Assembly: GCF_024298765.1 (NCBI RefSeq) | Contig: NZ_CP101210.1 | Length of the DNA stretch: 64,000 bases | Strand: one strand, 5' to 3' | DNA from: Escherichia coli | GTDB lineage: Bacteria; Pseudomonadota; Gammaproteobacteria; Enterobacterales; Enterobacteriaceae | Shown here: positions 34,775-53,804 of the stretch, in pieces | How positions within the stretch are numbered: position 1 is the first letter of the stretch | Layout: each line of letters starts with the position of its first letter | Program-made: the position numbers and the translations under genes | The notes under the pieces: model-generated | Seen by the model: the letters and a program-made list of their open reading frames with translations, nothing else | What the model was told of the DNA's origin: nothing | Database searches by the model: none

Positions 34775-34934
34775 GGGTTATTCCTTATCTATCTAATAAC
34801 GTTGAGTTTTCTGGAACCTGTCCCATTGAACTCTCGCCGGAAAGCTCAATAAGACAGGTTCTACGTTTAGTTGCCGCGCTTTTATATGCGCTTGATTTAC
34901 AACATCTTCTGGATAATTTTTACCAGAAAAATCA

Positions 34935-45935: not shown

Positions 45936-45944
45936 GGAGTAAAA

Positions 45945-46142
45945 ATGTCAGAAACTATTACGGTGAATTGCCCAACCTGCGGGAAAACGGTGGTGTGGGG
46001 TGAAATCAGCCCGTTTCGGCCATTTTGCTCCAAACGTTGTCAGCTGATCGACCTCGGAGAATGGGCTGCTGAAGAAAAACGAATCCCCAGCAGTGGCGAT
46101 CTTTCCGAAAGCGATGACTGGAGCGAAGAGCCAAAGCAGTGA
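45945..46142 (+). CDS. yacG: DNA gyrase inhibitor YacG (zinc finger)
   Basis: 65-aa ORF with CPTC...C..C zinc-binding pattern. Confidence 0.9.
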
Positions 46143-46149
46143 CATTTTA

Positions 46150-46356
46150 TCTGATGCGACGCTGGCCTGATAAGACGCGGGCAGCGTCGCATCAGGCATC
46201 GTGTGCAAATGTCGGATGCGGCGGGAACGCCTTATCCGACCTACAAGACCTTACATATCAACATGTTAAAATTGTAGATACTGATAAGACGCGCCAGCGT
46301 CGCATCGGGCATCTTGTGCAAATGTTGGATGCGGCATAAACGCCTATCCGACATAC
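46150..46356. repeat. cluster of about four REP units (BIME) between yacG and mutT; the last unit overlaps the mutT stop
   Basis: repeated gatgcgacgctg...cagcgtcgcatc and g(t)cggatgcggcg..aacgcctatccgacctac units read from the sequence. Confidence 0.8.
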
Positions 46357-46742
46357 ACACGCTTAAGCTTCGCAAGTACCGGTTCATTGGCTGGCGGAAA
46401 ATCATCGGCATTCAGACCGACCAGCGACATCCACTCACCGGGTTGCCCTTCTTTACCCCACGGCTCCCCTTCCCAGCTTTCGACCAGCCAGAACCACAGT
46501 GTTATATGCCTGTCCGGGAATTCATATTCCAGTATTTCAAATAGCGAAAAATGTTGTGGGGTAATCCCGACTTCTTCCTGAAGTTCACGCACCACCGCCT
46601 GTTCCGGCGTTTCACCCATTTCAATTTTACCGCCGGGAAACTCCAGTTTATTCGCCATGTGCGCATCTGCGGCGCGACGCGTTATAAAGATTTTATTGTT
46701 CTCGTTGCGAATAATACCTACCGCAATTTGCAGCTTTTTCAT
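46344..46742 (-). CDS. mutT: 8-oxo-dGTP diphosphatase (Nudix)
   Basis: 132-aa ORF with Nudix box GGKIEMGETPEQAVVRELQEEVGI; last codons and stop lie inside a REP unit. Confidence 0.9.
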   Translation of the reverse strand: MKKLQIAVGIIRNENNKIFITRRAADAHMANKLEFPGGKIEMGETPEQAVVRELQEEVGITPQHFSLFEILEYEFPDRHITLWFWLVESWEGEPWGKEGQPGEWMSLVGLNADDFPPANEPVLAKLKRVYVG

Positions 46743-46756
46743 TGTCTTAAACCTAT

Positions 46757-46786
46757 AAAAAAGGCGCAGAATCCTGCGCCTTTTAC
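46757..46786 (-). terminator. stem-loop with U-tract downstream of secA (aaaaggcgcaggattctgcgcctttttt on the - strand)
   Basis: read directly from the sequence. Confidence 0.65.
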
Positions 46787-46801
46787 TTCAATTGTTAGCT
46801 T

Positions 46802-49507
46802 TTATTGCAGGCGACCATGGCACTGCTTGTATTTTTTACCAGAACCGCACGGGCAAGGATCATTACGTCCAACTTTGCGTTCACCGGTTTGTGCCGCCAG
46901 TGCAGCTGCGGCTGCAGAGTCGTCATCCTGATGGCTAAGCTGCTGCATTTGCGCTAAACGCTCGGCTTCCATACGACGCTGTTGTTCCAGCTCTTCAACC
47001 TCTTCAGGCATACGTACCTGGACTTTGCTCAGCGTGCTGATGACTTCATATTTCAGCGACTCCAGCATCGCTGCAAACATGGAGAACGATTCACGTTTGT
47101 ATTCCTGCTTCGGATCTTTCTGTGCATAGCCACGCAGGTGGATACCTTGACGCAGATAATCCATCGCCGCCAGGTGCTCTTTCCACAGGGAGTCAAGCGT
47201 TTGCAGCATGACGCCTTTCTCGAAGTGACGCATCATCTCAGCGCCAACCACTTCTTCTTTACGCTGATACACTTCGATGGACTGCGCCAGAATACGCTCA
47301 CGCAGCGTCTCTTCATGCAGTTCTGGCTCTTTGTCCAGCCACTCGGCAATCGGCAAATCGAGGTCGAAATCGTTCTTCAGACGTTCCTGCAGCCCCGGAA
47401 TATCCCACATTTCTTCCAGCGACTGTGGCGGAATGTAGGCATCAATGGTCGCTTTGAACACATCTTCACGAATGCTGTTGATGGTTTCACTCACATCGCT
47501 GACATCCAGCAGTTCGTTACGCTGGGAGTAAATGGCGCGACGCTGATCGTTAGCCACGTCATCATATTCCAGCAGTTGCTTACGAATGTCGAAGTTACGG
47601 CTTTCAACTTTACGCTGGGCGTTGGCAATCGCTTTGGTCACCCACGGGTGCTCGATGGCTTCGCCTGGTTTCATACCCAGTTTACGCATCATGCCGGAAA
47701 CACGGTCAGAAGCAAAAATACGCATCAGCGCATCTTCCATCGACAGGTAGAAACGTGAAGAACCGGCATCCCCCTGGCGCCCAGAACGACCGCGTAGCTG
47801 GTTATCGATACGACGAGATTCGTGACGTTCTGTACCGATGATATGCAGACCACCTGCAGCCAGTACCGCATCGTGACGCACCTGCCAGTCGGCTTTGATT
47901 TTTTCAATTTGCTCTGCGGTCGGATTTTCCAGCGCGGCAACTTCTGCCTGCCAGCTACCACCGAGCACAATATCTGTACCACGACCCGCCATGTTAGTCG
48001 CGATAGTCACCGCCGCCGGATAACCCGCTTGTGCAACAATCGCTGCTTCGTTAGCGTGGAATTTGGCGTTCAGAACGTTGTGTTTGATACCGGCTTTGGT
48101 CAGCTCGTTTGACACCAATTCCGATTTTTCGATGGAGATAGTACCCACCAGCACTGGCTGGCCCTTCGCAGTACGCTCTTTGATATCTTCGATGATCGCC
48201 TGGATTTTTTCTGCTTCAGTCATATAGACCAGATCTGGCAGATCTTTACGAATCATCGGACGGTTGGTTGGAACAACAACGGTATCCAGTTTGTAGATTG
48301 AGCTAAATTCGAAAGCTTCGGTATCAGCAGTACCGGTCATGCCCGCCAGTTTTTCATACAAACGGAAGTAGTTCTGGAAGGTGATCGACGCCAGCGTCTG
48401 GTTTTCGTTCTGGATCTGTACTCCTTCTTTCGCTTCCACTGCCTGATGCAGGCCATCGGACCAACGACGTCCCTGCATGGTACGACCGGTGTGTTCGTCA
48501 ACGATGATAACTTCACCATCTTTAACGATGTAGTCGACGTCTCGGGTAAACAGCGCATGAGCGCGCAGCGCCGCCGTTACGTGGTGCATCAGCATGATGT
48601 TGGCCGGAGAGTACAGAGACTCCCCTTCATCCATGATGCCTTCTTTCACCAGCAGTTCTTCAATCAGCACCAGACCACGTTCGGTCAGGTTCACCTGGCG
48701 AGATTTTTCGTCCACCGAGAAGTGGCCTTCGCCCTGGAAGGTTTCGGAGTCTTCTTTTTCCTGACGGATCAGGTGCGGAATAATTTTATTCACGCGTTTA
48801 TACATTTCCGAGCTGTCTTCTGCCGGGCCGGAAATGATCAGCGGTGTACGCGCTTCATCGATCAGGATGGAGTCCACTTCGTCCACCAGCGCATAGTGCA
48901 GTTTACGCTGTACACGTTCTTCAGGGCTGAACGCCATGTTATCGCGCAGGTAGTCAAAGCCGTATTCGTTGTTCGTACCGTAAGTGATGTCAGCTGCGTA
49001 AGCTTCGCGCTTTGCCGGTGCTGGCATGCCCGGCAGGTTGATGCCGACTGTCAGGCCGAGGAATTCAAACAACGGACGGTTGTTTTCGGCGTCACGTTGC
49101 GCCAGGTAATCGTTGACGGTAACAACGTGTACCCCCTTACCGGTTAATGCGTTCAGGTAAGCAGGCAGCGTTGCGGTCAGGGTTTTACCTTCACCGGTAC
49201 GCATTTCCGCGATGCAGCGTTCGTTAAGAACCATACCGCCGAGTAACTGAACGTCGAAGTGACGCATACCAAAGACGCGCTTACTTGCCTCACGCACCAC
49301 AGCGAAAGCTTCTGGGATCAGATTTTCCAGCACTTCGCCTTTTTCCAGACGTGCACGAAACTCTGCGGTTTTCCCTTTCAGTTCTTCGTCGGAGAGTTTT
49401 TCCATCTCCGGTTCCATGGCATTGATGATGTTGACGACTTTGCGCATCCGGCGCAGGGTGCGATCGTTACGACTACCGAAAACTTTAGTTAATAATTTGA
49501 TTAGCAT
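46802..49507 (-). CDS. secA: preprotein translocase ATPase SecA
   Basis: 901-aa ORF recognised as SecA, including the C-terminal zinc-binding [14 protein letters not shown]. Confidence 0.97.
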
Positions 49508-51329: not shown

Positions 51330-52481
51330 TTAATCAGCTTGCTTACGCAGGAATGCTGGGATATCCAGATAATCCGGCTCTTTCGCAGTTTGCGGTGCGT
51401 TGTCATTCACGACTTTAGCAACCGGTTTCTGCTCCTGAGTCAGCGGTGCCATCCCGTGCTGCTGGTAGCGATCCATCACTGGCTGCTGAACCTGCTTATT
51501 GGTCACCAGGGTGATTTCAGGACGTTTGTCCATACCGATACCTGTCGCAACAACGGTTACGCGCAGCTCGTCATTCATATCCGGGTCAAGAGAAGTACCG
51601 ATAACGACAGTTGCGTTGTCGGATGCAAATGCACGGATGGTGTTACCTACCGTTTCGAACTCATCCAGACGCAGGTCGAAGCCCGCCGTGATGTTAACCA
51701 GCACGCCGCGCGCGCCAGACAGATCGATATCTTCCAGCAGCGGAGAGGAGATAGCCATTTCAGCAGCTTCTTCCGCACGGTCTTCGCCGCTCGCCACACC
51801 AGAACCCATCATTGCGTAGCCCATTTCAGACATTACGGTACGTACGTCTGCAAAGTCCACGTTCATCAGGCCTGGACGAGTAATCAGTTCAGCGATACCT
51901 TGCACAGCACCTTTCAGTACATCGTTCGCTGCGCCAAATGCATCCAGCAGGGAGATACCGCGGCCCAAGACTTTCAGCAGTTTGTCGTTAGGGATAGTGA
52001 TCAGAGAGTCCACATGCTTGGACAGTTCAGTGATCCCCTGCTCAGCGAATGCCATACGCTTCTTGCCTTCAAAGTTGAAAGGCTTAGTCACGACAGCAAC
52101 GGTCAGGATCCCCAAATCTTTTGCCACTTCAGCGACAACTGGTGCTGCACCAGTACCGGTACCACCACCCATACCCGCAGCAATAAAGACCATGTCTGCA
52201 CCTTCCAGCGCCGCACGCAGTGCATCGCGATCCTCATCAGCCGCATTACGGCCAACTTCTGGATTTGCGCCAGCTCCCAGTCCTTTGGTGATACCGCTAC
52301 CGATTTGAATCGTCTGTCCAACCGCTGTTTTACGCAGCGCTTGTGCATCGGTATTTACCGCGAAGAATTCAACACCTTCAATGCGCTCGCGCACCATGTG
52401 TTCAACAGCATTACCGCCGCCGCCGCCGACGCCGATGACTTTAATCACCGCGTCATTGGTAAGTTCCATTGGTTCAAACAT
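51330..52481 (-). CDS. ftsZ: cell division GTPase FtsZ
   Basis: 383-aa ORF; tubulin signature GGGTGTG. Confidence 0.97.
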
Positions 52482-52541
52482 AGTTTCTCTCCGATTTGTG
52501 CCTGTCGCCTGAGGCCGTAATCATCGTCGGCCTCATAAAAA

Positions 52542-53804
52542 TTAAAACTCTTTTCGCAGCCAACTATTGAGTCGCTTGATCCACGAGCCAACTGATGCTG
52601 TAACACGTTTTTCTACTTCAGCTTCACCGTTAAGATGTGACTCTTTCCCATAGTGAAGCAATCCCACCGCCGTCGAATAATACGGCTCCTGAGCATAATC
52701 CGTTAAACCGGTAATGTTCAGCGGCGCGCCGATACGCACTTGCGTATGAAACACGCGCTGAGCACAGGCTGCAAGACCTTCGATCTGCGCTGCGCCACCA
52801 GTTAAAACAATGCCTGCCGCCAGGTGATGTTTAACCCCTTGTTGGCGAAGCTTTTCCTGCAACTGCAATATCTCTTCGTTGACCAGGTTGAGCAGCTCGG
52901 TATAGCGCGGCTCGATCACCTCTGCCAGGGTCTGACGTTGCAGACTCCGCGGTGGACGACCGCCTACGCTCGGCACTTCCACGCTCTCATCTTTTCCAAC
53001 GATGGAACCCAGCGCACAACCGTGGCGAACTTTAATCGCTTCGGCGTCGCTTGGCGGCGTGCCAAAGGCGTAAGCGATATCACTGGTCACGACATTGCCA
53101 GCATAAGGAATTACCTTAGTGTGGCGCAATGCCCCACCGGTATAAACGGCGATATCCATTGTACCACCACCGATATCGACGACGCAGACACCCAGTTCAC
53201 GTTCATCTTCCGTCAATACCGAATAACTTGATGCCAGTCCGGCAAATATCAGTTGGTCAACTTTCAACCCACAACGTTCAACCGCTTTGACGATGTTTTT
53301 CGCCATATCGTTGTGACATGTGATCAGGTGCACTTTTGCCTGCATCCGCACGCCCGAAAGTCCTACCGGATTCTTGATCCCTTCCTGATAGTCAATCGCA
53401 TACTCTTGCGGGATCACATGCAGCACACGATGCTCATCGCGCACACGCACCGATTTCGCGGTATGGACGACGTTTTCCACATCTTCTTGCGTCACTTCTT
53501 CTTCAGAAATAGGCACCATACCAATTTCATTCTGGCAGCTGATGTGCTTACCAGAAAGCGCCAGATATACCGAAGAGATCTGACAATCTGCCATCAATTC
53601 TGCCTGGTCAATGGCGCGTTGTACGCACTTGACCACGGATTCGAGGTCGTTCACCCCGCCTTTATCCATACCACGCGACGGGCAGCTGCCCACGCCAATG
53701 ATATTGACCATACCGTCGGGCAGAACTTCCCCTACTAAAGCGGCAACCTTCGCGGTACCAATCTCCAGTCCTACTACCAGTTTTCTGTCCGTCGCCTTGA
53801 TCAT
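52542..53804 (-). CDS. ftsA: cell division protein FtsA (actin-like ATPase)
   Basis: 420-aa ORF recognised as FtsA. Confidence 0.97.

What the first reader, a model, noticed from the sequence alone, without database searches (positions are those of the whole stretch)
46143..46356. REP/BIME cluster whose terminal unit supplies the last codons and stop of mutT
Four REP-like units fill the yacG-mutT spacer, and the mutT reading frame (- strand) runs into the last unit, ending ...KLKRVYVG-stop with the stop at 46344..46346 inside REP sequence. From memory MutT is usually quoted as 129 aa, whereas this ORF is 132 aa, which suggests REP insertion or variation has remodelled the C-terminus. REP elements also modulate mRNA stability and can be mobilised by RAYT transposases, so this is a place where repeat dynamics touch a coding sequence.
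Basis: partly seen in the sequence, partly recalled or inferred. Interest (0 to 1): 0.35.

Follow-up and report, generated by a model that had tools for sequence, protein, structure and literature searches.

The report
mutT stop codon inside a REP
The E. coli mutT gene ends inside a common repeated palindrome (REP), and in about a third of strains, including this one, a single-base change in the repeat removed the usual stop so the protein is three residues longer; this is an ordinary, known kind of variation.

Summary
Window 46143-46356 is a BIME-2-type cluster between the convergent genes yacG and mutT: two z2-y REP pairs plus a half-REP remnant. The mutT ORF is 132 aa (...KRVYVG) and its stop (46344-46346) lies in the stem of the last y REP.

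No REP was inserted. In five other Escherichia lineages and in K-12 the same REP already abuts mutT. There the stop of the 129-aa protein sits on the TAG position of the REP's conserved GTAG tetranucleotide. In this lineage GTAG became GTAT (TAG to Tyr), so translation runs two codons further, to the in-frame stop at the REP's 'GGATAAGG' bulge motif.

The change is not strain-specific. Allele-specific searches of 5,426 complete E. coli genomes put 132-aa junction alleles in at least 1,854 (34%), including O157:H7, ST131 and ST95. 129-aa alleles are in at least 3,195 (59%). REP copy number (one or two pairs, or with an IS621 insertion) varies independently of the C-terminal allele.

It is already published that GTAG REPs often supply TAG stops, that BIME-2 copy number varies between strains, and that REPs within 15 nt of a stop can lower translation. 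This is an ordinary instance of a known kind.

The parts
45945..46142 (+). yacG (DNA gyrase inhibitor), convergent with mutT. Its TGA stop lies 8 nt before the first REP-derived hairpin.
   Evidence: ORF list; Pfam YacG 85.8 bits; RefSeq annotation; inverted repeat I1, arms 46151-46167 and 46179-46195
46151..46164 (.). Half-REP remnant (CTGATGCGACGCTG). It pairs with the 3' arm of z2 REP no. 1 in an alternative 17-nt-arm hairpin.
   Evidence: I1, 94% complementary; alignment with MG1655, where this position reads ...GATGCCGCACGTAG
46161..46197 (+). z2-type REP no. 1. The GTAG position reads GCTG; the stem is GCCTGATAAGACGCG / GCGTCGCATCAGGC.
   Evidence: REP core pattern match 46169-46193; inverted repeat I3; type definition from PMC3333891
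46198..46210 (.). Short head-to-head (S) linker of BIME pair 1
   Evidence: sequence; BIME-2 definition
46211..46244 (-). y-type REP no. 1, canonical. GTAG is intact on the - strand (CTAC at 46241-46244) and the AA/GC bulge is present.
   Evidence: pattern match 46215-46236; I4. Together with z2 no. 1 it gives the Rfam naRNA4 hit 46164-46241 at 73.5 bits, above the gathering score.
46245..46273 (.). Tail-to-tail linker between the two BIME pairs. Its sequence is strongly diverged from the MG1655 linker.
   Evidence: alignment A1
46274..46310 (+). z2-type REP no. 2. GTAG is present (46274-46277) but the 5' stem end is altered (GTAGATACTGATAAG).
   Evidence: pattern match 46283-46306; direct repeats D1 and D2
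46311..46323 (.). Short head-to-head (S) linker of BIME pair 2
   Evidence: sequence; direct repeat D1
46324..46356 (-). y-type REP no. 2, degenerate. GTAG has become GTAT, one bulge A is deleted (GGATAAGG to GGATAGG), and there are stem and loop substitutions. It overlaps mutT by 13 nt.
   Evidence: D1 and D3 repeats; fails the strict core pattern; hairpin only -12.7 kcal/mol against -19 to -21 for canonical alleles; naRNA4 hit 46278-46353 at 48.5 bits, below the gathering score
46344..46346 (-). The mutT stop codon in use (TAG), formed from the REP bulge motif TAAGG after loss of one A. O157:H7 and ST131 alleles have TAA here.
46353..46355 (-). Codon 130, TAT (Tyr). This is the position of the ancestral stop (the TAG position of the REP GTAG) that ends the 129-aa MutT of K-12 and other Escherichia species.
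   Evidence: alignment A1; junction table; outgroups
46344..46742 (-). mutT (8-oxo-dGTP diphosphatase), 132 aa. The NUDIX domain model covers residues 5-125.
   Evidence: Pfam NUDIX 81.4 bits; PDB 1mut E = 5.5e-84 over residues 1-129

Best explanation
The interval is a BIME-2-type REP cluster (z2-y pairs in tandem) in the 3' untranslated space shared by the convergent genes yacG and mutT.

The terminal y REP has abutted mutT since before the Escherichia species diverged. Read on the mutT mRNA, the REP begins G-TAG-GTC-GGA-TAA-GGCG. The G is the last base of codon 129, and the TAG of the conserved GTAG tetranucleotide is the normal stop (129 aa). The T plus the two unpaired A's of the stem bulge form a second, in-frame stop nine bases on.

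In the lineage of this window the last G of GTAG changed to T. Other strains have C there. The stop became a Tyr codon, and codon 129 changed from CTG to GTG. Translation now reads two stem codons (GTC GGA = Val-Gly) and ends at the back-up stop. Here that stop is TAG, because one bulge A was also lost. The result is a 132-aa MutT ending VYVG.

This is a common, tolerated allele. The number of BIME pairs changes separately, by unequal exchange between the repeated pairs.

Inferred from published work rather than shown here: the cluster probably acts as a bidirectional 3'-end element (decay block and/or partial terminator) for both transcripts. Because the hairpin starts at or before the stop codon, it may also slow terminating ribosomes and lower MutT output.
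For: Anatomy:
- Searches give the units and their coordinates.
- Alignment A1 and the junction table show CGT CTG TAG GTC AGA TAA in MG1655 against CGT GTG TAT GTC GGA TAG in the window. CB6837 has TAC; O157:H7 ends at TAA.

Polarity:
- E. albertii, Escherichia sp. MOD1-EC7003, sp. E1V33, E. whittamii and SCPM-O-B-8794 all have 129 aa, a stop at that site, and 'gtc [g/a]ga taa' in frame after it. Two of them read exactly CTG TAG.
- They carry two to at least three y-z2 pairs downstream of mutT.

Frequency (36-nt allele-specific megablast, which needs an exact 28-mer spanning both diagnostic sites):
- 132-aa alleles: 710 + 207 + 937 genomes.
- 129-aa alleles: 1,373 + 1,822 genomes.
- Total 5,049 of 5,426.
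- Sampled annotations agree: 399 bp in strain 104, CB6837, C4, EC2641, PEC011, O157:H7 MB41-1, AR_0058, EC16, NC101 and an O121 strain. 390 bp in MG1655, W150, B25FEP and 7_14_47A.

Uncoupled copy number: spacers of 87-90 and 201 nt occur with 132 aa, and 99 and 215 nt with 129 aa. EC2641 has an MG1655-like left part and a window-like right part, which is a recombinant.

Literature:
- BIME-2 definition and inter-strain copy-number variation (PMC3333891).
- REPs fewer than 16 nt from a stop lower translation, summarising Liang et al. 2015 (PMC12306157).
- REPs act as local terminators and stabilisers, and convergent pairs with REPs are expressed more highly (bioRxiv 10.64898/2026.03.23.713779).
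Against: - The functional part is not tested for this locus. No expression, 3'-end or ribosome data were available, and the primary paper (Liang et al. 2015) could not be read.
- The terminal hairpin in this window is weak (-12.7 kcal/mol), so any ribosome or exonuclease effect may be small.
- Harris et al. found no global half-life difference for REP-terminated genes.
- The history within E. coli is unresolved. The 132-aa allele occurs in B2 and E lineages and the 129-aa allele in K-12- and O26-type lineages. Recombination, or a secondary re-gain of the stop, cannot be excluded.
- 377 genomes (7%) were not classified.
Confidence: 0.85

Rival explanations
1. A REP unit was recently inserted or mobilised, for example by a RAYT transposase, into the 3' end of mutT in this strain. 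It replaced the native C-terminus and stop.
For: The ORF does end in REP sequence. REP number differs between strains at this locus. TnpA_REP cleaves and recombines BIMEs in vitro (PMC3333891).
Against: The junction between mutT and the y REP is at the same nucleotide in K-12, in one-pair and two-pair strains, and in five other Escherichia lineages. The 129-aa and 132-aa alleles differ at the junction only by substitutions. The terminal unit has lost GTAG, which the E. coli enzyme strictly requires (PMC8266576).
Confidence: 0.03
2. The polarity is reversed within E. coli. The 132-aa form was fixed in the E. coli ancestor, and the 129-aa form of K-12-like lineages is a secondary nonsense change (TAT to TAG), or was re-imported by recombination.
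For: 132-aa alleles occur in lineages usually placed as early-branching (own knowledge of the phylogeny): B2 (ST131, ST95, NC101) and E (O157:H7). They show internal diversity (TAT or TAC, VYVG or VYVE, TAA or TAG). 129-aa alleles were seen in K-12- and O26:H11-type genomes.
Against: All five outgroup lineages have the stop at codon 130, and two share the exact CTG TAG of K-12. A reversion would need two specific substitutions. Recombinant haplotypes across this spacer exist: EC2641, and an O121 strain with a K-12-type secA allele but a 132-aa mutT. Phylogroup distribution is therefore a weak guide.
Confidence: 0.12
3. The 3-aa tail is functionally selected. Either the extension changes MutT activity or stability, or the position of the stop inside the hairpin resets MutT translation and hence the lineage's mutation rate.
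For: The allele is frequent and old enough to have diversified. The stop position relative to the stem differs between alleles, and hairpin strength ranges from -12.6 to -21.4 kcal/mol. REPs fewer than 16 nt from a stop are reported to lower translation.
Against: Residues 126-132 lie outside the NUDIX domain model. The MutT tail after ...PVIxKL is hypervariable in length (129-135 aa) and sequence across 79 enterobacterial loci, which points to weak constraint. No experimental data were available.
Confidence: 0.08

Closest known systems
E. coli BIME-2 (tandem z2 + y REP pairs; Bachellier et al., Ton-Hoang et al. 2012, PMC3333891)
   Same: It has z2 and y units in alternating orientation with a short 13-nt head-to-head linker and a longer tail-to-tail linker. 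The copies are tandem, and the copy number differs between strains at the same locus.
   Different: Two of the four units have lost the GTAG tetranucleotide. The last unit is degenerate and overlaps a coding sequence by 13 nt.
GTAG-tagged REPs that donate the TAG stop to the flanking ORF (Di Nocera, De Gregorio & Rocco 2013, PMC3733652)
   Same: In the 129-aa allele the mutT stop is exactly the TAG of the REP's GTAG. Seventeen of 79 other enterobacterial mutT loci also end in G-TAG, several of them directly followed by a different REP-type palindrome, as in Enterobacter.
   Different: In this window that stop has been lost, and a second REP-internal stop (the bulge motif) is used instead. I did not find the back-up-stop arrangement described for mutT: the one four-term search (mutT, REP, yacG, BIME) returned nothing.
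REPs within 15 nt of a stop codon that stall terminating ribosomes and lower translation (Liang, Rudd & Deutscher 2015, as summarised in PMC12306157)
   Same: The distance criterion is met in the extreme. The hairpin starts 0 nt after the stop in the 129-aa allele, and the stop lies inside the 5' arm in the 132-aa allele. On the other side, yacG has a hairpin 8 nt after its stop.
   Different: No translation, mRNA-cleavage or tmRNA data exist here for mutT. The terminal hairpin in this strain is weak.
naRNA4 / REP325 unit (Rfam RF02564; Qian et al. 2015, PMC4550694; re-evaluated by Harris et al. 2026)
   Same: Pair 1 matches the covariance model end to end, above the gathering score (73.5 bits). 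This reflects the same z2-y two-hairpin architecture.
   Different: It is a different locus. Pair 2 is below threshold. The proposed nucleoid role of naRNA4 is itself now disputed. The hit shows only that this is a BIME-2 unit.

Membership tests
REP (E. coli y / z2 palindromic units) | An imperfect palindrome of about 35 nt with the conserved stem sequence (GCC[G/T]GATGCG...CTTATC...) | tested here: met
   Three of the four units match a strict core pattern, with 0 expected by chance. All four form inverted repeats. The fourth is a recognisable diverged copy, 88% identical to unit 2 over 51 nt.
REP (E. coli y / z2 palindromic units) | A conserved GTAG tetranucleotide 5' of the stem | tested here: inconclusive
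   Present in y no. 1 (CTAC at 46241-46244) and z2 no. 2 (46274-46277). Replaced by GCTG in z2 no. 1 and by GTAT in the terminal y no. 2. Met for two units and not met for two, so the latter two are decayed copies.
REP (E. coli y / z2 palindromic units) | Extragenic location | tested here: not met
   The terminal y unit overlaps mutT by 13 nt in this strain. In K-12 the overlap is 4 nt: the last base of codon 129 plus the stop. The other three units are extragenic.
BIME-2 | z2 and y units in inverse orientation with a short S linker, in tandem copies, with copy number variable between strains | tested here: met
   There are two pairs, each with a 13-nt head-to-head linker. One pair, two pairs or at least three pairs occur in other strains and species. 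Definition from PMC3333891.
Substrate of the E. coli RAYT (TnpA_REP) | An intact GTAG and the AA/GC stem mismatch, both required for binding and cleavage | tested here: not met
   For the terminal unit, GTAG is GTAT and one bulge A is deleted. The requirement comes from PMC3333891 and PMC8266576. y no. 1 retains both features. Enzyme activity itself cannot be tested here.
naRNA4 (Rfam RF02564) | A covariance-model score at or above the gathering threshold | tested here: met
   Pair 1 scores 73.5 bits against 59.5. Pair 2 scores 48.5 bits, below threshold. Expression and HU binding cannot be tested here.
Translation-modulating REPs (15 nt or less from a stop; Liang et al. 2015) | REP hairpin within 15 nt downstream of the termination codon | tested here: met
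   The stop is inside the 5' arm of the hairpin in the 132-aa allele, or immediately before it in the 129-aa allele.
Translation-modulating REPs (15 nt or less from a stop; Liang et al. 2015) | Reduced translation, mRNA cleavage and tmRNA tagging that depend on the REP | not testable with these tools
   This needs reporter fusions or tmRNA-tag assays.
MutT / NUDIX hydrolase | NUDIX domain and near-identity to characterised E. coli MutT | tested here: met
   Pfam NUDIX 81.4 bits over residues 5-125. PDB 1mut E = 5.5e-84 over residues 1-129.

The most novel reading that the evidence does not exclude
The REP-embedded pair of in-frame stops, and the position of the hairpin relative to them, act as a tuning element for MutT abundance through slowed termination and tmRNA rescue. 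On this reading the 129-aa allele (stop just before the stem) and the 132-aa allele (stop inside the stem) give E. coli lineages measurably different MutT levels, and so different A:T-to-C:G mutation rates.
Probability: 0.07. Interest if true: 0.5.

Novelty: already known. Interest (0 to 1): 0.15.

Why it matters
It matters little beyond annotation hygiene. The locus is a clean, datable example of how a REP at the very end of a gene provides a stop codon plus an in-frame spare. Losing the first stop then costs only three extra residues. It also shows that the textbook '129 aa' MutT is only the majority allele.

Practical consequences:
- MutT length differences between strains (129 vs 132 aa) should not be read as frameshifts, pseudogenes or mutator alleles.
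- Statements that all E. coli REPs are extragenic are slightly too strong.
- Recoding or amber-suppressor work on K-12 touches a REP GTAG at this gene.

If the speculative tuning reading were true, it would link a repeat polymorphism to control of the mutation rate. Nothing here supports that beyond geometry.

Tried and rejected
- The primary paper on stop-proximal REPs (Liang, Rudd & Deutscher 2015) and the 2016 review could not be retrieved by DOI or PMC id. Their result is cited second-hand from PMC12306157.
- NC_000913.3 as held shows only CDS features at this locus. I could not check whether the reference annotates the REP.
- The 95-nt variant query mixed true locus hits with other REP loci. 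I replaced it with 36-nt junction queries.
- The consensus terminator scan found no intrinsic terminator in the spacer. The one promoter-like hit is at chance level.
- My hairpin-overlap statistic across 79 outgroup loci is uninformative, because the folded segment included 12 coding nucleotides. I use only the length and stop-codon counts from that call. The overall energy difference (-18.6 against -13.9 kcal/mol for mononucleotide shuffles) is weak support at best.
- A literature search for mutT + REP + yacG + BIME found nothing.
- I considered an assembly artefact and rejected it, because hundreds of independent complete genomes share each allele.
- I did not assign phylogroups formally. 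Lineage statements rest on strain and serotype names in the hit lists.
- The species-representative scan did not return the E. coli, Shigella or E. fergusonii representatives, so those outgroups are missing.

Full report
**What is there.**
The window is Escherichia coli. Positions 45940-46760 match strain 104 (chicken, China) at 100%, and 5,424 of 5,426 complete E. coli genomes hold the locus. The genes are zapD, yacG (45945-46142, +), mutT (46344-46742, -) and secA. yacG and mutT converge on a 201-nt spacer.

Reading the sequence with the repeat finder gives these units:
- a half-REP remnant (46151-46164);
- a z2-type REP (46161-46197);
- a 13-nt head-to-head linker;
- a canonical y-type REP (46211-46244);
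- a 29-nt tail-to-tail linker;
- a second z2 REP (46274-46310);
- a second 13-nt linker;
- a second, degenerate y REP (46324-46356).

This is the architecture that Ton-Hoang et al. define as BIME-2 (PMC3333891).

The signal is far above chance:
- A strict REP core pattern hits three of the four units, with none expected in shuffles.
- The mutT-strand RNA folds 6.4 sd better than shuffles.
- Rfam's naRNA4 model, itself a z2-y unit of REP325, matches pair 1 above its gathering score and pair 2 below it.

The mutT ORF is 132 aa and ends ...KRVYVG. RefSeq annotates the same ORF.

**What differs from the reference.**
K-12 MutT is 129 aa, and all 23 PDB entries have 129 residues.

The aligned junctions read, on the mutT strand:
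- K-12: CGT CTG TAG GTC AGA TAA GGCG...
- Window: CGT GTG TAT GTC GGA TAG GCG...

So the REP already abuts mutT in K-12. The G of the REP's conserved GTAG is the last base of codon 129, and the TAG is the stop. The window has GTAT instead, which gives Tyr130. Translation continues through two stem codons (Val-Gly) to an in-frame stop made by the REP's GGATAAGG bulge motif.

That second stop is TAA in O157:H7 and ST131-type alleles. It is TAG here because one A is missing. No insertion is involved. The change is a stop-loss substitution, cushioned by a spare stop 9 nt downstream in the same frame.

**Polarity and age.**
A scan of species-representative genomes returned five other Escherichia lineages: E. 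albertii, sp. MOD1-EC7003, sp. E1V33, E. whittamii and SCPM-O-B-8794. All five have a 129-aa MutT, a stop (TAG or TAA) at codon 130, 'gtc [g/a]ga taa' in frame after it, and two to at least three y-z2 pairs downstream. Two share the exact CTG TAG of K-12.

The REP-stop overlap and the tandem BIME array therefore predate the genus radiation. The 129-aa state is ancestral at genus level.

Within E. coli the history is not resolved. 132-aa alleles sit in B2 and E lineages and 129-aa alleles in K-12-like ones. Clear recombinants also exist: EC2641 has a K-12-like left spacer and a window-like right end, and an O121 strain has a K-12-type secA allele with a 132-aa mutT.

**How common.**
I used 36-nt junction queries in which megablast's exact 28-mer must span both diagnostic sites. 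The counts in 5,426 complete genomes are:

| Junction allele | MutT length | Genomes |
|---|---|---|
| TAT...VYVG (window, O157:H7) | 132 aa | 710 |
| TAC...VYVG (CB6837) | 132 aa | 207 |
| TAT...VYVE (ST131, ST95, NC101) | 132 aa | 937 |
| W150-type | 129 aa | 1,373 |
| MG1655-type | 129 aa | 1,822 |

The queries cannot cross-hit. At least 1,854 genomes (34%) encode the 132-aa form and at least 3,195 (59%) the 129-aa form. 377 genomes are unclassified.

All fourteen annotated records I opened agree with the allele call. The extension is a major polymorphism, not a strain-specific event.

**REP copy number.**
Spacers of 87-90 nt (one pair) and 201 nt (two pairs) occur with the 132-aa allele. 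Spacers of 99 and 215 nt occur with the 129-aa allele. Pair number and C-terminal allele therefore vary independently, as expected for unequal exchange between 88%-identical pairs. Inter-strain BIME-2 copy-number variation is already published.

In two strains an IS621 element sits at the GTAG of the leftmost z2 REP.

**Mechanism and function.**
The following is shown:
- the anatomy;
- the substitution;
- the in-frame spare stop;
- the population frequency.

The following is inferred:
1. The tail is probably neutral. It lies outside the NUDIX model, which covers residues 5-125. The MutT tail is hypervariable (129-135 aa) across 79 enterobacterial loci. The allele is also carried by successful non-mutator lineages.
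2. The cluster probably serves both convergent transcripts as a 3' decay block and/or partial terminator. This follows Harris et al. 2026, who found REP-containing convergent pairs to be more highly expressed. No intrinsic terminator is present.
3. The hairpin begins at the stop (129 aa) or the stop lies inside it (132 aa). The locus therefore falls in the class reported by Liang et al. [quoted passage not shown] This is untested for mutT. The terminal hairpin here is weak: -12.7 kcal/mol, against -19.0 (W150) and -21.4 (O157:H7).
4. The E. coli RAYT tolerates no GTAG substitution and needs the bulge (PMC3333891, PMC8266576). The terminal unit should therefore be inert to it.

**Comparison with what is known.**
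Each element is already described:
- BIME-2 structure and copy-number variation are in PMC3333891.
- The effect of stop-proximal REPs on translation is published.
- The 132-aa proteins are in RefSeq.

The same trick recurs at mutT in other genera. Several Enterobacter and Leclercia loci end in G-TAG directly followed by a different REP-type palindrome. Citrobacter L035 ends ctg TAG gccggataagg. C. amalonaticus L040 takes Gln-Ala-Gly-stop from a REP.

One small detail I did not find spelled out for this gene is the in-frame GTAG and bulge stop pair, and its use as a fallback in a third of E. coli. The single four-term search (mutT, REP, yacG, BIME) found nothing.

**Verdict.**
This is an ordinary instance of a known kind, and interest is low.

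Noticed in passing
L092 (NZ_CM177971.1, strain B25FEP) and L093 (NZ_CP074839.1, strain 7_14_47A), between yacG and mutT: An IS621 (IS110-family) element is inserted in this same BIME, at the GTAG/CTAC of the leftmost z2 REP (...ccgcacgtag | IS | (ag)gcctgataag...). On the other strand the site reads ATCAGGC-CT-AC. As far as I recall, that fits the REP target reported for IS621. The window's own copy of this REP has GCTG instead of GTAG, so it lacks that target.
   Followed up: partly
window 46757-46826 (- strand): Rfam STnc40 (a Salmonella sRNA) matches at 83 bits, above its gathering score of 45. The hit spans the secA 3' end and the secA-mutT intergenic hairpin (aaaaggcgcagaatcctgcgcctttt, about 46760-46785). 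It is probably the secA terminator or 3'UTR fragment.
   Followed up: no
window 52473-52562 (-) and 34777-34890 (+): Rfam hits above the gathering score: PssrA (105.5 bits) and tp2 (103.4 bits). Both are unrelated to the finding.
   Followed up: no
window 19098-19195: This is the only other canonical REP pair in the 64-kb window: a y-type unit at 19098-19135 and an inverted partner at 19161-19195. I did not examine its position relative to the neighbouring stop codons.
   Followed up: no
L035, L038, L040, L050, L052, L060, L070 and others (mutT 3' ends of Citrobacter, Leclercia, Enterobacter, Klebsiella): The mutT stop or last codons are REP-derived in other genera too. Enterobacter and Leclercia read '..G TAG gcctgctaagcgaagcgccagcaggc'. 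Citrobacter L035 reads 'ctg TAG gccggataagg'. C. amalonaticus L040 reads 'cag gcc gga TAA ggc' (Gln-Ala-Gly-stop from the REP). K. spallanzanii L052 reads 'aag gtc gga TAA'. Across the 79 loci, 24 stops are TAG and 17 of those are G-TAG. As far as I recall, TAG is otherwise the rarest stop codon in these genomes. Salmonella has no REP here and a 131-aa MutT.
   Followed up: partly
window 46344-46742 (MutT protein): Besides the tail, this MutT differs from K-12 at E17K, K70I, R89S and I125L. S89 recurs in five of the six other E. coli MutT sequences whose full translation was printed. L125 is shared with EC16, and about 207 genomes hit the junction query with one mismatch, which is consistent with the L125 codon. 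K17 and I70 were seen only in this sequence among those printed in full.
   Followed up: partly
window 46245-46273 vs MG1655 (alignment A1, columns about 130-165): The tail-to-tail linker between the two BIME pairs is almost unalignable between this strain and K-12, while the flanking REPs are conserved. The K-12 version resembles the linkers of the outgroup Escherichia arrays (..ctaactcattgataaatt..). The window's version does not. Its origin was not pursued.
   Followed up: no
literature: bioRxiv 10.64898/2026.03.23.713779, section 36: The preprint states that 'all REP elements are extragenic' in E. coli. At this locus the terminal REP overlaps mutT by 4 nt in K-12 and 13 nt in this strain, so the statement is not strictly true.
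   Followed up: yes
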